Part shown: positions 1 through 4,439 of the stretch, piece after piece
Layout of the letters: each line of letters begins with the position of its first letter
Position numbering within the stretch: the first letter of the stretch is position 1
Source of the DNA: a virus
Lineage: Duplodnaviria; Heunggongvirae; Uroviricota; Caudoviricetes
DNA: 4,439 nucleotides
IMG/VR virus record: IMGVR_UViG_3300023290_000107
Reading direction: 5' to 3' (one strand)
The notes under the pieces: model-generated
The model's database searches: none
What the model was told of the DNA's origin: nothing
What the model saw: the letters and a program-made list of their open reading frames with translations, nothing else
Translations under genes and position numbers: made by a program

Positions 1-1796
1 AGCTGCCGACGCTGCGCCAGCGCCTGTTCCGCTGCGTGAGTATCCGTGAGAACGATGACGGCACGTATGCCATCACCGCCGTGCAGCATGTACCGGAGAA
101 AGAAGCCATCGTGGATAACGGGGCGCACTTTGACGGTGACCAGAGCGGCACGGTGAATGGTGTCACGCCGCCAGCAGTGCAGCACCTGACCGCCGAAGTC
201 ACTGCAGACAGCGGGGAATATCAGGTGCTGGCGCGATGGGACACACCGAAGGTGGTGAAGGGCGTGAGCTTCCTGCTCCGTCTGACCGTAACAGCGGACG
301 ACGGCAGTGAGCGACTGGTCAGCACGGCCCGGACGACGGAAACCACATACCGCTTCACGCAACTGGCGCTGGGGAACTACAGGCTGACAGTCCGGGCGGT
401 AAATGCCCGGGGGCAGCAGGGCGATCCGGCGTCGGTATCGTTCCGGATTGCCGCACCGGCAGCGCCGTCGCGGATTGAGCTGACGCCGGGCTATTTTCAG
501 ATAACCGCCACGCCGCATCTTGCGGTTTATGATCCGACGGTACAGTTTGAGTTCTGGTTCTCGGAAAAGCGGATTGCGGATATCAGGCAGGTTGAAACCA
601 CAGCACGCTATCTTGGCACGGCGCTGTACTGGATAGCCGCCAGTATCAATATCAAACCGGGCCATGATTATTATTTTTACGTTCGCAGTGTGAACACCGT
701 TGGCAAATCGGCATTCGTGGAGGCTGTCGGTCGGGCGAGCGATGATGCGGAAGGTTACCTGGATTTTTTCAAAGGAGAAATCGGGAAAACACATCTGGCC
801 CAGGAGTTGTGGACGCAGATTGATAACGGTCAGCTTGCGCCGGACCTGGCTGAAATCAGGACGTCCATTACGAATGTCAGCAATGAAATCACGCAGACCG
901 TCAATAAAAAACTGGAAGACCAGAGTGCGGCAATCCAGCAGATACAGAAAGTTCAGGTTGATACAAATAATAACCTGAACAGCATGTGGGCCGTGAAACT
1001 GCAGCAGATGAAGGACGGACGCCTTTATATTGCGGGTATCGGAGCCGGTATTGAGAATACGCCAGCAGGTATGCAGAGTCAGGTGCTTCTGGCTGCTGAC
1101 CGGATTGCGATGATTAATCCTGCGAATGGCAACACAAAGCCGATGTTTGTTGGTCAGGGCGATCAGATATTCATGAACGACGTGTTCCTGAAACGCCTGA
1201 CGGCTCCGACCATTACCAGCGGCGGTAATCCTCCGGCATTTTCCCTGACACCGGACGGGCGGCTGACGGCGAAAAATGCCGATATCAGCGGTAACGTGAA
1301 TGCGAACTCCGGGACGCTCAACAACGTCACGATTAACGAGAACTGTCGGGTTCTGGGAAAATTGTCCGCCAACCAGATTGAAGGCGATCTCGTTAAAACA
1401 GTGGGCAAAGCTTTCCCCCGGGACTCCCGTGCACCGGAACGGTGGCCATCAGGGACCATCACCGTCAGGGTTTATGACGATCAGCCGTTTGACCGGCAGA
1501 TTGTTATTCCGGCGGTGGCATTCAGCGGCGCTAAACATGAGCGGGAGAATAACGATATTTATTCGTCATGCCGCCTGATAGTACGGAAAAACGGTGCTGA
1601 AATTTATAACCGTACCGCGCTGGATAATACGCTGATTTACAGTGGTGTTATTGATATGCCAGCTGGTCGCGGCCACATGACGCTGGAGTTTTCGGTGTCA
1701 GCATGGCTGGTGAATAACTGGTATCCCACAGCAAGTATCAGCGATTTGCTGGTTGTGGTGATGAAGAAAGCCACCGCAGGCATCAGTATCAGCTGA
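1..1796 (+). CDS. J: Tail-tip host specificity protein J, C-terminal ~597 codons (5'-partial; reading frame begins at nt 3 and is open to the window edge; stop TGA at 1794-1796)
   Basis: Frame 3 is open from nt 3 to 1796 with no stop. The translation ([45 protein letters not shown]...[30 protein letters not shown]...DMPAGRG...) matches, from memory, long stretches of the C-terminal half of phage lambda J (gpJ, central tail fibre), including the fibronectin-III-like region and the C-terminal receptor-binding region. The track ORF 36..1796 is the same frame from an internal GTG. Gene order J-lom-stf is as in lambda. Confidence 0.93.
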
Positions 1797-1812: not shown

Positions 1813-1842
1813 ACGGGCGCCAGAAATGGCGCCTTTTTTATT
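1813..1842 (+). terminator. Putative rho-independent terminator downstream of J
   Basis: Perfect inverted repeat GGCGCC (1816-1821) / 6-nt loop AGAAAT / GGCGCC (1828-1833), immediately followed by TTTTTTATT (1834-1842). Located 20 nt after the J stop codon. Confidence 0.6.
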
Positions 1843-1852
1843 GCAGAAAAGC

Positions 1853-1863: not shown

Positions 1864-1935
1864 ATGCGTAAAGTTTGTGCAGCCATTTTGTCCGCAGCCA
1901 TCTGTCTGGCCGTATCCGGTGCGCCTGCATGGGCG
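1864..1935 (+). other. Sec signal peptide of Lom (24 codons, predicted signal peptidase I cleavage after AWA)
   Basis: Positively charged n-region (RK), hydrophobic core [12 protein letters not shown], and an A-x-A (AWA) cleavage motif followed by SEQQ. Confidence 0.7.
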
Positions 1936-2463
1936 TCTGAGCAGCAGGCCACACTGAGCGCAGGGTATCTTCATGCCCGTACGAACGCTCCCGGCAGCGA
2001 TAATCTGAACGGGATTAACGTGAAATACCATTATGAGTTTACGGACACGCTGGGGCTGATTACGTCATTCAGTTATGCCAACGCTGAAGATGAGCAAAAA
2101 ACGCATTACAGCGATACCCGCTGGCATGAAGATTCCGTGCGTAACCGCTGGTTCAGCGTGATGGCGGGGCCGTCTGTGCGCGTGAATGAATGGTTCAGCG
2201 CGTATGCGATGGCGGGTGTGGCTTACAGCCGTGTGTCGACTTTCTCCGGGGATTATCTGCAGGTGACCGACAATACGGGGAAAACGCACGATGTGCTGAT
2301 CGGAAGTGATGACGGTCGCCACAGCAACACGTCTCTGGCGTGGGGGGCTGGCGTGCAGTTTAACCCGACCGAATCCGTGACCATTGACCTTGCTTATGAA
2401 GGTTCCGGTAGTGGCGACTGGCGAACGGATGCATTTATTGTTGGTATCGGATACCGTTTCTGA
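1864..2463 (+). CDS. lom: Outer membrane protein Lom (Ail/Lom/OmpX family 8-stranded beta-barrel), 199 aa, prophage-encoded moron
   Basis: Complete ORF ATG 1864 to TGA 2461-2463. N-terminal signal peptide [24 protein letters not shown] with AWA-S cleavage motif. Alternating aromatic/hydrophobic beta-strand pattern and a C-terminal aromatic residue (…IGYRF) typical of outer-membrane beta-barrels. Sequence recognised as lambda Lom; sits between J and stf as in lambda. Confidence 0.93.
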
Positions 2464-2566
2464 CAACAGACGCCGATTTATCTTCTGTAAATATTGTTAT
2501 GATACGCAGGTTCATCCACTTTATGGGGTGAACTGCGTTTGAGGAAACGTAAAGTTACACTGTCCT

Positions 2567-2601
2567 GAAGCCCGTGGCGTCACTGCTGCGGGCTTTTTTT
2601 A
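2567..2601 (+). terminator. Putative rho-independent terminator downstream of lom, immediately upstream of stf
   Basis: Stem AAGCCCG (2568-2574) pairs with CGGGCTT (2589-2595); inner pairs extend to 2577-2578/2585-2586, with a 6-nt loop GTCACT. Followed by a run of seven T (2594-2600). GC-rich stem plus U-tract is canonical intrinsic terminator architecture. Confidence 0.65.
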
Positions 2602-2603
2602 TT

Positions 2604-2609
2604 GGTGGA
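2604..2609 (+). promoter_or_regulatory. Shine-Dalgarno sequence for stf (GGTGGA, 5-nt spacer to ATG at 2615)
   Basis: Purine-rich motif at appropriate distance from the ATG that opens the long frame-2 ORF. Confidence 0.5.
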
Positions 2610-2614
2610 AAAGT

Positions 2615-4439
2615 ATGACAGTAAAAATTTCTGGCGTGCTTAAAGATGGCACAGGAAAACCAGTACAGAACTGCACCATTGTGCTGAAGGCCAGACGAAC
2701 CAGCAGCACGGTGGTGGTGAACACGGTGGCCTCTGAAAATCCGGATGAAGCCGGACGTTACAGCATGGATGTTGAGCATGGTCAGTACAGCGTCACCCTG
2801 CTGGTTGAAGGTTTTCCGCCTTCACATGCCGGGACCATTACCGTCTATGAAGGTTCCAGACCAGGTACGCTGAATGATTTTCTCGGTGCCATGACGGAGG
2901 ATGATGTCCGACCGGAGGCACTGCGCCGCTTTGAGCAGATGGTGGAAGAGGTGTCACGTAACGCCTCCGCGGTTGCACAGAATACGGCAGCCGCGAAAAA
3001 ATCAGCCAGCGATGCCAGTGCATCAGCCAGCGAGGCGGCAACTCATGCAACCGATGCTGCAGCCTCAGCACGTGCCGCCAGCACGTCAGCCGGACAGGCC
3101 GCGTCGTCGGCTCAGTCAGCGTCTTCCAGCGCAGGAACGGCATCGACAAAGGCCCGTGAAGCAGCAAAAAGTGCTGCTGCTGCAGAGTCATCAAAAAGCG
3201 CGGCAGCTACCAGCGCCAGTGCCGCGAAAACGTCAGAAACGAATGCCGCAGCGTCACAACAATCAGCAGCCACTTCTGCATCCACCGCGACCACGAAAGC
3301 GTCAGAAGCAGCCACTTCAGCACGGGATGCGTCGGCTTCAAAAGAGGCGGCAAAATCATCAGAAACGAACGCATCATCAAGCGCCAGTAGTGCCGCTTCC
3401 TCGGCAACGGCGGCAGGAAATTCCGCGAAGGCGGCAAAAACGTCCGAGACGAACGCCAGGTCTTCTGAAACGGCAGCGGGACAGAGCGCCTCGGCTGCGG
3501 CAGGCTCAAAAACAGCGGCTGCATCATCTGCCAGCGCCGCGTCAACAAGTGCCGGGCAGGCCTCAGCCAGTGCCACCGCTGCCGGAAAGTCGGCAGAAAG
3601 TGCCGCATCGTCTGCTTCAACAGCCACAACGAAGGCTGGCGAAGCCACTGAACAGGCCAGCGCAGCAGCGAGGTCTGCTTCCGCAGCGAAGACATCCGAA
3701 ACGAACGCGAAAGCGTCGGAAACCAGCGCAGAATCCTCAAAAACGGCTGCCGCATCGTCCGCCAGTTCGGCGGCGTCATCGGCATCATCTGCGTCTGCTT
3801 CAAAAGATGAGGCGACCAGACAGGCGTCAGCAGCAAAGGGCAGCGCCACGACGGCATCCACGAAGGCGACAGAGGCAGCTGGCAGTGCGACGGCGGCAGC
3901 TCAGAGCAAAAGTACGGCGGAATCCGCGGCAACGCGCGCTGAGACAGCGGCAAAACGGGCAGAGGATATTGCATCCGCCGTGGCGCTTGAGGATGCGAGC
4001 ACGACGAAAAAGGGGATAGTACAGCTCAGCAGTGCGACTAACAGCACTTCCGAGTCACTGGCGGCAACGCCAAAAGCCGTTAAGGCCGCGTATGAGCTGG
4101 CTAACGGGAAATACACCGCACAGGATGCAACGACAGCACAGAAAGGGATAGTTCAGCTTAGCAACGCGACCAACAGCACATCTGAAATGCTGGCGGCAAC
4201 GCCAAAGTCGGTAAAGGCAGCCTATGACCTTGCTAACGGGAAATATACTGCTCAGGACGCTACGACAGCACAAAAAGGAATTGTCCAGCTCAGTAGTGCA
4301 ACCAACAGCACATCTGAAATGCTGGCGGCAACGCCAAAGTCGGTAAAGGCAGCCTATGACCTTGCTAACGGGAAATATACTGCTCAGGACGCTACGACAG
4401 CACAAAAAGGAATTGTCCAGCTCAGTAGTGCAACCAACA
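2615..4439 (+). CDS. stf: Side tail fibre protein Stf, N-terminal 608 codons (3'-partial; ORF runs off the window end with no stop)
   Basis: ATG at 2615; the frame (codon starts = 2 mod 3) was translated by hand and is open to nt 4439. The N-terminus MTVKISGVLKDGTGKPVQNCTIVLKARRTSSTVVVNTVASENPDEAGRYSMDVEHGQYSVTLLVEGFPPSHAGTITVYE... closely resembles the lambda Stf (orf-401) N-terminus as I recall it. It is followed by an Ala/Ser-rich fibrous shaft and KGIVQLSSATNSTSE.LAATPKAVK tail-fibre repeat motifs. Absent from the supplied ORF track, evidently because no stop lies within the window. Confidence 0.92.
   Translation, partial: MTVKISGVLKDGTGKPVQNCTIVLKARRTSSTVVVNTVASENPDEAGRYSMDVEHGQYSVTLLVEGFPPSHAGTITVYEGSRPGTLNDFLGAMTEDDVRPEALRRFEQMVEEVSRNASAVAQNTAAAKKSASDASASASEAATHATDAAASARAASTSAGQAASSAQSASSSAGTASTKAREAAKSAAAAESSKSAAATSASAAKTSETNAAASQQSAATSASTATTKASEAATSARDASASKEAAKSSETNASSSASSAASSATAAGNSAKAAKTSETNARSSETAAGQSASAAAGSKTAAASSASAASTSAGQASASATAAGKSAESAASSASTATTKAGEATEQASAAARSASAAKTSETNAKASETSAESSKTAAASSASSAASSASSASASKDEATRQASAAKGSATTASTKATEAAGSATAAAQSKSTAESAATRAETAAKRAEDIASAVALEDASTTKKGIVQLSSATNSTSESLAATPKAVKAAYELANGKYTAQDATTAQKGIVQLSNATNSTSEMLAATPKSVKAAYDLANGKYTAQDATTAQKGIVQLSSATNSTSEMLAATPKSVKAAYDLANGKYTAQDATTAQKGIVQLSSATN
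2960..4000 (+). repeat. Degenerate 42-bp (14-codon) periodic repeat region encoding the Ala/Ser/Thr-rich shaft of Stf (~24 units)
   Basis: The protein segments cleanly into 14-mers, e.g. KTSETNAAASQQSA / ATSASTATTKASEA / ATSARDASASKEAA / KSSETNASSSASSA / ASSATAAGNSAKAA / KTSETNARSSETAA, with nearly every unit ending in A-A or E-A. The recurring K-[TS]-S-E-T-N-A motif starts at nt 3227, 3353, 3437 and 3689; the spacings 126, 84 and 252 bp are all exact multiples of 42. Confidence 0.8.
4001..4439 (+). repeat. 132-bp tandem direct repeats within stf (about 3.3 copies in window; unit encodes a 44-aa phage tail-fibre repeat)
   Basis: Units begin at the K codons at 4010, 4142, 4274 and 4406 (the last truncated by the window end). 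The encoded unit is KGIVQLS[S/N]ATNSTSE[S/M]LAATPK[A/S]VKAAY[E/D]LANGKYTAQDATTAQ. Nucleotides 4169-4307 are identical to 4301-4439, so the sequence is perfectly 132-periodic from 4169 to the end. Copy 1 (4010-4141) is the most diverged. Confidence 0.9.

What the first reader, a model, noticed from the sequence alone, without database searches (positions are those of the whole stretch)
700..1796. Lambda-like J with an apparently divergent receptor-binding end
The first ~250 residues in the window and several internal blocks ([37 protein letters not shown]) match lambda J as I recall it. The segment from ~nt 770-1020 and the last ~120 residues (…[82 protein letters not shown]) appear substantially different from lambda. 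In lambda the extreme C-terminus of J binds LamB, so a mosaic C-terminus would imply a different outer-membrane receptor and host range. The comparison rests on memory and is not verified.
Basis: partly seen in the sequence, partly recalled or inferred. Interest (0 to 1): 0.45.

Follow-up and report, generated by a model that had tools for sequence, protein, structure and literature searches.

The report
Common OmpC-type lambda J tail tip
This is the tail-tip (J) gene of a lambda-like E. coli prophage whose receptor-binding end differs from lambda's and very probably binds the porin OmpC instead of LamB, but this variant is already common in E. coli and has been tested in published work.

Summary
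The window encodes the last 597 residues of a lambda-type J protein (nt 3-1796).

| Window aa | Identity to lambda J |
|---|---|
| 1-258 | 97.7% |
| 259-340 | about 39% of aligned columns, plus a 28-residue insertion |
| 381-440 | 92% |
| 441-597 | 44.6% |

- Residues 431-597 correspond to the segment that Brödel et al. (Nature 2024) grafted onto lambda J after residue 964.
- They differ at 5 of 167 positions from that paper's "1A2" graft, which matches the phage VT1-Sakai J end.
- 1A2 switches lambda from LamB to OmpC, and it works on the EDL933 OmpC allele but not the K-12 allele.
- The receptor of this exact allele is inferred, not shown. Four of the five differences lie in two RBD loops, one of them modelled as an OmpC contact.

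It is not novel.
- The same receptor-binding DNA is at least 95% identical in about 2,100 of 5,426 complete E. coli genomes.
- It is 100% identical in the type strain ATCC 11775.
- The window's J differs by one residue from the intact UTI89 prophage gpJ.

The gene is ordinary lambdoid mosaicism: the Ig-like domains, helical shaft and receptor domain assort independently around a conserved fibre block.

The parts
3..1796 (+). 3' 1,794 nt of a lambda-type J (tip attachment / central tail fibre) gene. It has 597 codons plus a stop. The 5' part lies outside the window.
   Evidence: ORF and translation. It is 71% identical to lambda J aa 563-1132. It has one amino-acid difference from the intact 1,159-aa UTI89 gpJ, WP_000515773.1.
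144..770 (+). Two Ig-like/FNIII domains (aa 48-152 and 154-256), of the lambda allele.
   Evidence: Pfam Ig_J scores 145 bits and Ig_J_second 136 bits, both above their cut-offs. The enclosing segment aa 1-258 is 97.7% identical to lambda but only 69-79% to VT1-Sakai, phi330 and JLK-2012.
777..1022 (+). Divergent segment equivalent to lambda's alpha-helical shaft (AHS), in a 'long' allele. It carries 28 extra residues (about aa 275-304, nt 825-914).
   Evidence: Of the 54 columns that align to lambda, 38.9% are identical, and there are 28 gap columns. The segment is 97.6% identical to phage 21, VT1-Sakai, PhiR55_1 and 640R1. Domain names come from Ge & Wang 2024. A low-confidence single-sequence AF2 model predicts a helix at aa 281-333 with pLDDT 60-75.
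1104..1199 (+). Equivalent of lambda J 902-933, the published trigger peptide of the HepS abortive-infection nuclease. The Phe equivalent to F924 is kept (DQIFMND).
   Evidence: Alignment to lambda, coordinates, and trigger peptide definition from PMC13043305.
1143..1322 (+). Conserved central-straight-fibre block (aa 381-440). It is the shared sequence between variable modules and the likely site of recombination.
   Evidence: It is 80-97% identical across all ten panel J proteins. It lies within the Pfam Phage_Tail_Tip match at aa 310-438. [quoted passage not shown]
1293..1793 (+). Receptor-binding module (aa 431-597), equal to the segment grafted in the 1A2/A8 chimeras. It is of the 1A2/VT1-Sakai (OmpC) type.
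   Evidence: It differs from 1A2/VT1-Sakai at 5 of 167 residues. Pfam Ig_GpJ_C matches aa 467-597 at 133 bits. The RBD (aa 441-597) matches PDB 9wca (A8 gpJ) at E = 1e-55 and lambda 8xcj at E = 1.5e-34. The RBD (aa 441-597) is 44.6% identical to lambda.
1422..1445 (+). Loop DSRAPERW (aa 474-481). It is 4 residues longer than the equivalent phi330 loop T918-Y921.
   Evidence: Panel alignment and the phi330 AlphaFold3 loop description.
1536..1556 (+). Loop HERENND (aa 512-518). It is equivalent to the phi330 hairpin E953-S962, which is predicted to point into the OmpC barrel. It holds 3 of the 5 differences from 1A2 (R514K, N516H, N517T).
1653..1676 (+). Conserved DMPAGRGH loop (aa 551-558). R556 is His in 1A2/VT1-Sakai.
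1710..1727 (+). Loop VNNWYP (aa 570-575). It is equivalent to the phi330 hairpin A1015-P1020, which is predicted to contact the OmpC rim. It is polymorphic (N/D/G at aa 572) among close alleles.
1815..1844 (+). Terminator-like hairpin plus T-run immediately after J.
   Evidence: Consensus scan found 8 pairs, 6 of them G-C, followed by TTTTTT. This is a pattern match only.
1864..2463 (+). lom (Ail/Lom outer-membrane beta-barrel, 199 aa). It serves as the context gene that confirms the J-lom-stf order.
   Evidence: Pfam Ail_Lom at 410 bits over its full length. The gene order is the same as in lambda.
2615..4439 (+). 5' part of a side-tail-fibre (stf) gene that runs off the window. It provides context only.
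   Evidence: Pfam phage_tail_N matches aa 1-134 and there are three Phage_fiber_2 repeats. A 132-nt tandem repeat of 3.3 copies lies at nt 4008-4439.

Best explanation
The window carries the distal two-thirds of the central tail fibre of a lambda-like prophage. This is the type inserted in ompW in UTI89 and APEC O1.

**What the protein is**
- By homology with the solved lambda J structures, the protein forms a trimer. From the tail outward it has two Ig-like/FNIII domains, a helical shaft, a beta-prism fibre and an Ig-like receptor-binding domain whose bottom loops dock into a trimeric outer-membrane porin.
- Receptor binding is relayed up the fibre, loosens the helical shaft and opens the tail tip for DNA ejection.

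**How this gene is assembled**
- The FNIII domains are of the lambda allele.
- The helical shaft is a longer allele (+28 aa), shared with phage 21 and VT1-Sakai.
- The receptor-binding domain is of the 1A2/VT1-Sakai type, which uses OmpC rather than LamB and discriminates between OmpC alleles.
- The conserved fibre block (aa 381-440) is the homologous stretch where these modules are exchanged.

**Shown here**
- The sequence relationships, the module pattern and the prevalence.

**Taken from the literature**
- OmpC use by the 1A2 and A8/phi330 types, and the lambda opening mechanism.

**Inferred**
- That this exact allele, with its 5 substitutions, uses OmpC.
- That the insertion lengthens the helical shaft.
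For: - **Membership of lambda J.** Four J-specific Pfam domains score above their cut-offs. PDB matches are lambda J at E = 9e-270 and A8 gpJ at E = 5e-191. The gene order is J-lom-stf.
- **RBD type.** The window differs at 5 of 167 residues from the 1A2 graft. That graft equals VT1-Sakai J at all non-artefact positions.
- **1A2 function.** 1A2 was screened on a lamB-deletion recipient. It gave about 98% delivery to K-12 carrying EDL933 OmpC and about 5% or less to wild-type MG1655. A figure legend reports 1A2 vectors editing UTI89, which hosts the near-identical prophage.
- **Sister type.** The A8/phi330 type is OmpC-dependent by knockout and complementation.
- **Modules assort independently**.
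  - 2G7b combines the lambda FNIII, the lambda short shaft and this RBD (98/41/97% identity to the window).
  - Phage 21 combines the lambda-like FNIII, the long shaft and a different RBD (96/98/69%).
  - JLK-2012 combines a divergent FNIII, a divergent shaft and this RBD (70/60/99%).
- **DNA breakpoints.** Against lambda they lie at about nt 780 and 1321. Against VT1-Sakai the breakpoint is at about nt 480.
- **Intactness.** The UTI89 counterpart gpJ is a full 1,159 aa and differs by one residue within the window.
Against: - No experiment exists for this exact allele.
- Three of its five differences from 1A2 sit in the loop equivalent to the hairpin modelled inside the OmpC barrel. A fourth sits in the conserved DMPAGRGH loop.
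- Small changes in J can shift or add receptors. Lambda gains OmpF use with four or more mutations. Phage 21 gains OmpC use with one mutation, even though its RBD is already 81% identical to an OmpC user.
- The 1A2 sequence was read from a machine-read PDF. Five codons could not be read and six were corrupted.
- The source-data sheet for the EDL933-OmpC panel (Extended Data Fig. 2c) repeats the numbers of the MG1655-OmpC panel. The 1A2/EDL933 result therefore rests on Fig. 1b, Extended Data Fig. 8a and the text.
- The helical nature of the insertion rests on a poor model with mean pLDDT 39. No clean heptad register was found.
Confidence: 0.79

Rival explanations
1. The RBD still uses LamB, as lambda and phage 21 do, despite its sequence divergence from lambda.
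For: - Phage 21's RBD is only 47% identical to lambda's, yet its native receptor is LamB.
- Phage 21's RBD is also 81% identical to the OmpC-using phi330/A8 type. RBD similarity classes therefore do not map one-to-one onto receptors.
Against: - The window's RBD is 97% identical to 1A2 but only 65% to phage 21 and 44% to lambda.
- 1A2 was selected on a lamB-deletion recipient. It delivers poorly (about 5%) to wild-type MG1655, which has LamB, while wild-type lambda delivers well there.
Confidence: 0.06
2. The five substitutions relative to 1A2 (R514K, N516H, N517T, R556H, S595T) change specificity materially. The result could be a different set of OmpC alleles, or another porin such as OmpF.
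For: - Three substitutions lie in the loop equivalent to phi330 E953-S962, which is modelled as pointing into the OmpC barrel.
- The same positions, together with aa 572 in the rim-contact loop, account for 5 of the 8 RBD positions (aa 441-597) that vary among nine close alleles.
- 1A2 and A8 already differ in which OmpC alleles they accept.
- A few J mutations suffice for receptor shifts in lambda and phage 21.
Against: - The RBD scaffold and the other loops are identical.
- Intermediate natural alleles exist (HEREHTD in JLK-2012, 2G7b and PhiR55_1). This suggests a continuum within one receptor class.
- No data link these residues to a receptor switch.
Confidence: 0.12
3. The gene is a relic in a defective prophage and no longer mediates any adsorption. 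Its divergence would then be decay, not an alternative functional allele.
For: - Many E. coli lambdoid prophages are defective.
- VT1-Sakai's own J is annotated as truncated by a mutation.
- JLK-2012's J frame contains a stop.
Against: - The window frame is open for all 597 codons.
- The UTI89 counterpart is a full 1,159 aa and is flanked by intact tape-measure, L, K, I, lom, stf and tfa genes.
- The divergent parts are 97-100% identical to alleles in plaque-forming phages (PhiR55_1, 640R1, 2G7b) and in phage 204576.
- Differences from lambda are concentrated in discrete modules and are not scattered.
Confidence: 0.03

Closest known systems
gpJ of the ompW-inserted prophage of E. coli UTI89 (WP_000515773.1, 'phage attachment tail tip protein J'); the same allele occurs in APEC O1, NU14 and ATCC 11775
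   Same: - The whole window is 98.9% identical at DNA level to UTI89, APEC O1 and NU14.
- Within the window, the UTI89 J differs by 8 nt and 1 aa (A192T).
- The UTI89 helical shaft and RBD are identical to the window's.
- ATCC 11775 matched at 100% over the 504-nt RBD query only.
   Different: There are 49 nucleotide differences across the window, mostly in lom and in the Ala/Ser-rich part of stf. The window therefore comes from a related strain and not an identical one.
gpJ '1A2' chimera (Brödel et al., Nature 2024), which matches the natural J C-terminus of phage VT1-Sakai (AP000400)
   Same: - The RBD type is the same, with 162 of 167 residues identical over the grafted region and identical loop lengths.
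- 1A2 is the experimentally tested relative. It uses OmpC and is allele-selective, accepting EDL933 OmpC but not K-12 OmpC.
   Different: - Five substitutions separate them: R514K, N516H, N517T, R556H and S595T. Four of these lie in two RBD loops. The 512-518 loop matches a hairpin modelled as an OmpC contact. R556H lies in the conserved DMPAGRGH loop.
- VT1-Sakai's FNIII region is only about 79% identical to the window's, with a breakpoint near nt 480.
gpJ 'A8' chimera (PDB 9wca/9wcb) and phage phi330 J (PV189401)
   Same: - The domain architecture is the same, including a long helical-shaft form in phi330.
- It uses OmpC, shown by Keio knockout and complementation for phi330.
- It is the best solved-structure match for the window's RBD, at E = 1e-55.
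   Different: - The RBD is only 62-66% identical.
- The loop equivalent to HERENND is 5 residues longer, and the DSRAPERW loop is 4 residues shorter.
- A8 accepts K-12 OmpC while 1A2 does not.
Bacteriophage lambda J (NP_040600; PDB 8iyk, 8xcj/8xck with LamB)
   Same: - The FNIII domains are 97.7% identical and the conserved fibre block is 92% identical.
- The gene order is the same and all four Pfam J domains are shared.
- The opening mechanism is presumed to be the same.
   Different: - The helical shaft is 28 residues shorter in lambda, with about 39% identity over aligned columns.
- The RBD is 44.6% identical.
- Lambda's receptor is LamB.
Bacteriophage 21 J (OL657228)
   Same: The FNIII domains are lambda-like (95.7%) and it carries the same long helical-shaft allele (97.6%).
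   Different: - The RBD is 65-69% identical and is closer to the A8/phi330 type (81%).
- Its native receptor is LamB, and OmpC use is gained by one mutation.

Membership tests
Lambda-type tip attachment protein J (central tail fibre) | C-terminal domain series: two Ig-like/FNIII domains, tail-tip fibre domain, C-terminal Ig-like receptor-binding domain | tested here: met
   - Pfam Ig_J scores 145 bits, Ig_J_second 136 bits, Phage_Tail_Tip 108 bits and Ig_GpJ_C 133 bits, all above curated cut-offs.
- phmmer to lambda J structures gives E = 9e-270.
Lambda-type tip attachment protein J (central tail fibre) | N-terminal baseplate-hub domains in the same polypeptide | tested here: inconclusive
   The window starts at the equivalent of lambda aa 563, so the hub part is not visible. 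The UTI89 gene, which differs by 1 aa in the shared part, is a full-length 1,159-aa gpJ.
Lambda-type tip attachment protein J (central tail fibre) | Genomic position: last of the tail genes, followed by lom and the side-tail-fibre gene | tested here: met
   - J, Ail/Lom and the stf N-terminal domain lie in that order on the + strand, as in lambda.
- In UTI89 the upstream genes are the tape-measure gene and the L, K and I homologues.
OmpC-using gpJ RBD, 1A2 / VT1-Sakai type | Near-identity to the functionally tested graft (lambda-equivalent aa 965-end), with the same loop lengths | tested here: met
   162 of 167 residues are identical and there are no indels.
OmpC-using gpJ RBD, 1A2 / VT1-Sakai type | Identical residues in the predicted receptor-contact loops | tested here: not met
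   - The window has HERENND where 1A2 has HEKEHTD.
- The window has AGRGH where 1A2 has AGHGH.
- The VNNWYP and DSRAPERW loops are identical.
OmpC-using gpJ RBD, 1A2 / VT1-Sakai type | Adsorption or DNA delivery depends on OmpC and is independent of LamB | not testable with these tools
   This is known only for 1A2 and for A8/phi330, from the literature. It needs a wet-lab assay for this allele.
   Identity is 44.6% over 157 aligned residues.
OmpC-using gpJ RBD, A8 / phi330 type (PDB 9wca) | Same RBD allele class, with matching loop lengths | tested here: not met
   Identity is 62-66%, and two loops differ in length by 4 and 5 residues. The fold is the same family (E = 1e-55) but the allele class differs.

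The most novel reading that the evidence does not exclude
The HERENND / R556 / S595 sub-allele is found unchanged in UTI89-type prophages, in E. coli ATCC 11775 and in phage 204576. It may recognise a different subset of OmpC alleles than the tested 1A2 (HEKEHTD / H556 / T595), for example OmpC variants of phylogroup B2 ExPEC strains. The three substitutions in the barrel-inserting loop would then act as the specificity switch. If so, natural variation at these few loop positions would record an OmpC-J arms race and could be used to tune delivery vectors.
Probability: 0.3. Interest if true: 0.3.

Novelty: already known. Interest (0 to 1): 0.15.

Why it matters
The practical value is modest.
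- It lets one annotate this very common prophage J allele as 'probably OmpC-binding, 1A2/VT1-Sakai type' in place of a generic 'host specificity protein J'.
- That helps predict which strains such prophages can lysogenise, including several long-tailed Stx1 and Stx2 phages that carry the same RBD.
- It also helps choose RBDs for engineered lambda-based delivery particles.

It does not open a new question. The RBD type has already been identified, grafted and exploited, and modular exchange in lambdoid tail genes is textbook.

Tried and rejected
- **Single-sequence AlphaFold2 of aa 241-597.** Mean pLDDT was 39 and pTM 0.29. This is too poor for fold searching. Only the helix call for aa 281-333 was kept, as weak support.
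- **Heptad-register scan of the long shaft.** No clean register was found, and Gly276/Pro280 probably break the helix. 'Four extra heptads' is therefore not claimed.
- **Rfam scan of the whole window.** The only match was a sub-threshold isrG hit at 19.5 bits against a gathering score of 100, inside the Ala/Ser-rich stf region. I treated it as chance.
- **Literature search for a directly mapped receptor of any phage carrying exactly this RBD (PhiR collection, Stx1 or long-tailed Stx2 phages).**
  - None was found.
  - The PhiR paper reports ManYZ dependence, not outer-membrane receptors.
  - Among the PhiR phages listed, those with this RBD type have E. coli C or ECOR13 as recorded host, not K-12. 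This fits 1A2's failure on K-12 OmpC but is only circumstantial.
- **No paper describing PDB 9wca/9wcb was found**.
I used it for context only.
- **Source-data sheets of Brödel et al.** The Extended Data Fig. 2c sheet duplicates the 2b numbers. I relied on Fig. 1b, Extended Data Fig. 8a and the text instead.
Full report
**What is in the window**

Frame 3 of the + strand is open from the 5' edge (nt 3) to a TGA at 1794-1796, giving 597 codons. It is followed by these features:
- A terminator-like hairpin at nt 1815-1834 with a T-run.
- A 199-codon Ail/Lom gene at nt 1864-2463.
- An unusually long spacer with a second terminator-like hairpin at nt 2567-2596.
- The 5' part of a side-tail-fibre gene from nt 2615 to the window's end.

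This is the J-lom-stf arrangement of phage lambda. The 597-residue fragment hits four J-specific Pfam domains above their curated cut-offs:

| Pfam domain | Window aa |
|---|---|
| Ig_J | 48-152 |
| Ig_J_second | 154-256 |
| Phage_Tail_Tip | 310-438 |
| Ig_GpJ_C | 467-597 |

It also matches the solved lambda J chains at E = 9e-270.

**Checking the observation**

I fetched the real lambda J (NC_001416) and aligned it.

| Window aa | Identity to lambda J | Note |
|---|---|---|
| 1-258 | 97.7% | |
| 259-340 | 10-20% per 20-residue block | 28 extra residues (about aa 275-304); 38.9% identity over the 54 aligned columns |
| 341-380 | 57.5% | |
| 381-440 | 91.7% | contains the quoted [30 protein letters not shown] block |
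| 441-597 | 44.6% | DMPAGRG is conserved |

At DNA level, identity to lambda drops from 93-98% to 13-35% at about nt 780. It returns to 87-90% at nt 1141-1320 and falls to 40-68% from about nt 1321.

The only corrections are to the extents. The divergent end is about 157 residues, not about 120. The middle block extends past nt 1020 and includes an insertion.

**Which domains are affected**

Ge & Wang (Nat Commun 2024) divide the C-terminal part of lambda J into five parts. [quoted passage not shown] Four bottom loops of the RBD insert into LamB. Binding is relayed up the fibre, the AHS loosens, the FNIII strings dissociate and the tail tip opens.

On that map the window's first divergent block is the AHS and the second is the RBD. 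The conserved block between them is the CSF.

**What the divergent RBD is**

A tblastn search with the last 157 residues gave these results:
- More than 50 deposited phage records at 95% identity or above. They include VT1-Sakai, many long-tailed Stx1a and Stx2a phages, JLK-2012, PhiR5_1, PhiR55_1, 2G7b and P-EibA.
- One record, 'phage 204576', at 100%.
- Phage 21 and mEp460 at only 65%.

The literature supplied function.
- Brödel et al. (Nature 2024) replaced lambda J after residue 964 with C-termini of natural gpJ variants.
- They obtained two chimeras, A8 and 1A2, that deliver DNA through OmpC instead of LamB.
- A8 works with both K-12 and EDL933 OmpC. 1A2 works with the EDL933 allele only.
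- One or both chimeras work on 21 of 23 OmpC alleles.

The supplementary file gives the DNA of both chimeras. It is a machine-read PDF with dropped and added bases, and the 1A2 graft is codon-recoded. I therefore aligned it to protein with a frameshift-tolerant dynamic programme.
- The 1A2 graft is of the window's type.
- Across five panel proteins, the same six corrupted positions recur, including an in-frame stop. I treat these as reading artefacts.
- Beyond those, VT1-Sakai J matches 1A2 completely.
- The window differs at five positions: R514K, N516H, N517T, R556H and S595T. That is 162 of 167 identical residues with no indels.

A8 corresponds to the J of phage phi330. The receptor of phi330 was shown to be OmpC by Keio knockout and complementation. 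A8 is also the chain in PDB 9wca/9wcb, which is the best solved-structure match to the window's RBD (E = 1e-55, against 1.5e-34 for lambda).

**How strong is the OmpC inference**

It is strong but not proof. The phi330 paper's AlphaFold3 model makes two predictions:
- Hairpin E953-S962 sits inside the OmpC barrel.
- Hairpin A1015-P1020 sits on the barrel rim.

In my alignment these correspond to the window's HERENND loop (aa 512-518) and VNNWYP loop (aa 570-575).
- Three of the five differences from 1A2 lie in the first loop.
- A fourth (R556H) lies in the DMPAGRGH loop.
- Among nine close natural alleles, five of the eight variable RBD positions (aa 441-597) are 514, 516, 517, 556 and 572.

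The J family is also known to shift receptors with few changes.
- Lambda gains OmpF use with four or more J mutations.
- Phage 21's RBD is 81% identical to the OmpC-using phi330/A8 type by my calculation. Yet phage 21 natively uses LamB and gains OmpC use with one mutation.

I therefore put about 0.8 on OmpC being the receptor of this allele. About 0.12 goes on a materially different specificity, meaning other OmpC alleles or another porin. About 0.06 goes on LamB.

Two circumstantial points fit OmpC with 1A2-like allele selectivity:
- A figure legend in Brödel et al. reports a 1A2-bearing vector editing UTI89, the strain that hosts the near-identical prophage.
- Among the PhiR phages listed, those with this RBD type have E. 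coli C or ECOR13 as recorded host, not K-12.

**The mosaic structure**

I aligned ten J C-terminal regions and profiled DNA identity along the window. The table gives percent identity to the window by segment.

| Phage | aa 1-258 (FNIII) | aa 259-340 (AHS) | aa 441-597 (RBD) | Description |
|---|---|---|---|---|
| 2G7b | 98 | 41 | 97 | lambda FNIII, lambda short AHS, this RBD |
| Phage 21 | 96 | 98 | 69 | lambda-like FNIII, long AHS, different RBD |
| JLK-2012 and Stx2a_1447 | about 70 | 60 | 98-99 | divergent FNIII, divergent long AHS, this RBD |
| VT1-Sakai and phage 204576 | 79 | 98 | 97-100 | breakpoint near nt 480 |

- The CSF block (aa 381-440) is 80-97% identical in all ten proteins.
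- It is the obvious homologous stretch for exchange. It is also the site the engineers chose for their fusions.
- This is standard lambdoid modular exchange.

**The long AHS**
- The 28-residue insertion is shared, at 97.6% identity over aa 259-340, with phage 21, VT1-Sakai, 640R1 and PhiR55_1. A more divergent long form occurs in phi330, JLK-2012 and Stx2a_1447.
- PDB 9wca is named 'A8 gpJ 713', and the A8 chimera is lambda sequence up to residue 964. It therefore presumably has the short lambda shaft, and I found no solved structure of a long shaft.
- A single-sequence AlphaFold2 model was poor overall (mean pLDDT 39). It predicted a 53-residue helix at aa 281-333 with pLDDT 60-75.
- A heptad scan gave no clean register, and Gly276/Pro280 probably interrupt the helix.
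- That the insertion lengthens the shaft is plausible but not shown.

**Prevalence and source**
- The whole window is 98.9% identical to a prophage in UTI89, APEC O1, NU14 and others.
- In UTI89 the prophage lies in ompW, next to yciE and trpA. It has an intact 1,159-aa gpJ flanked by complete tail genes.
- The window differs from UTI89 at 49 positions. Eight are in J (one amino-acid change, A192T), 22 in lom and 19 in the Ala/Ser-rich part of stf.
- The 504-nt graft-equivalent DNA is present in 3,779 of 5,426 complete E. coli genomes. By each record's best match, 183 records are at 99% or above and 1,917 at 95-99%. It is 100% identical in the type strain ATCC 11775.

**Verdict**

The thing itself is ordinary and already characterised. 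It is a frequent, annotated J allele whose RBD type has been functionally tested, structurally bracketed and used in engineered vectors.

The only open points are minor:
- The exact OmpC-allele range of the HERENND sub-allele.
- The structure of the long helical shaft.

Noticed in passing
window 2464-2614: The lom-stf spacer is 151 nt here, against 64 nt in lambda, VT1-Sakai, 2G7b and the other panel phages. About nt 2461-2580 aligns to none of the nine panel phages. The spacer carries a strong terminator-like hairpin (nt 2567-2596, 13 pairs) with a T-run just upstream of the stf start. The spacer has no nucleotide differences from the UTI89 prophage.
   Followed up: partly
window 1104-1199 (J aa 368-399): This is the equivalent of lambda J 902-933, the published trigger peptide of the Gifsy-1 HepS abortive-infection nuclease. 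The Phe equivalent to F924 is retained (DQIFMND). By analogy, this J would be expected to trigger HepS, unlike the Gifsy J proteins, which carry Ile at that position.
   Followed up: partly
window 825-914 (J aa 275-304): There is a 28-residue insertion relative to lambda in the alpha-helical shaft, which relays receptor binding to tail-tip opening. It is shared with phage 21 and VT1-Sakai, and in a more divergent long form with phi330. No solved structure of this long form was found. A low-confidence model suggests a helix.
   Followed up: partly
window 2615-4439: The side-tail-fibre gene has an N-terminal phage_tail_N domain, then about 330 residues of Ala/Ser/Thr-rich low-complexity sequence. 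It ends in a 132-nt tandem repeat (3.3 copies, 88% matches, nt 4008-4439) that encodes Phage_fiber_2 repeats. All 19 stf differences from UTI89 fall within nt 3374-3700, in the low-complexity part.
   Followed up: no
window 1815-1844: A terminator-like hairpin (GGGCGCC-AGAAAT-GGCGCC plus T6) lies 19 nt after the J stop codon and before lom. Phage 21 has an annotated terminator at the equivalent place.
   Followed up: no
L011 (UTI89 NC_007946) 13944-14069 and 4317-7796: The near-identical UTI89 prophage is inserted in ompW, leaving a truncated OmpW fragment next to yciE, yciF and trpA. This is the same site as the 'PPompW' prophages of EHEC, whose J proteins are 89.8% identical to the window's.
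   Followed up: no
L003 (VT1-Sakai) 1-1874; L004 (JLK-2012) 1-1874: Two phages that carry this RBD type have disrupted J genes in their deposited records. VT1-Sakai J is annotated as truncated by a mutation, and the JLK-2012 J frame contains one stop and is annotated as two ORFs.
   Followed up: no
Supplementary source data of PMC11338833 (Extended Data Fig. 2, panels B and C): As held in the library, the panel C sheet (EDL933 OmpC) repeats the 1A2 and A8 numbers of panel B (MG1655 OmpC). [quoted passage not shown] 8a, so those sheets were not used as evidence.
   Followed up: no
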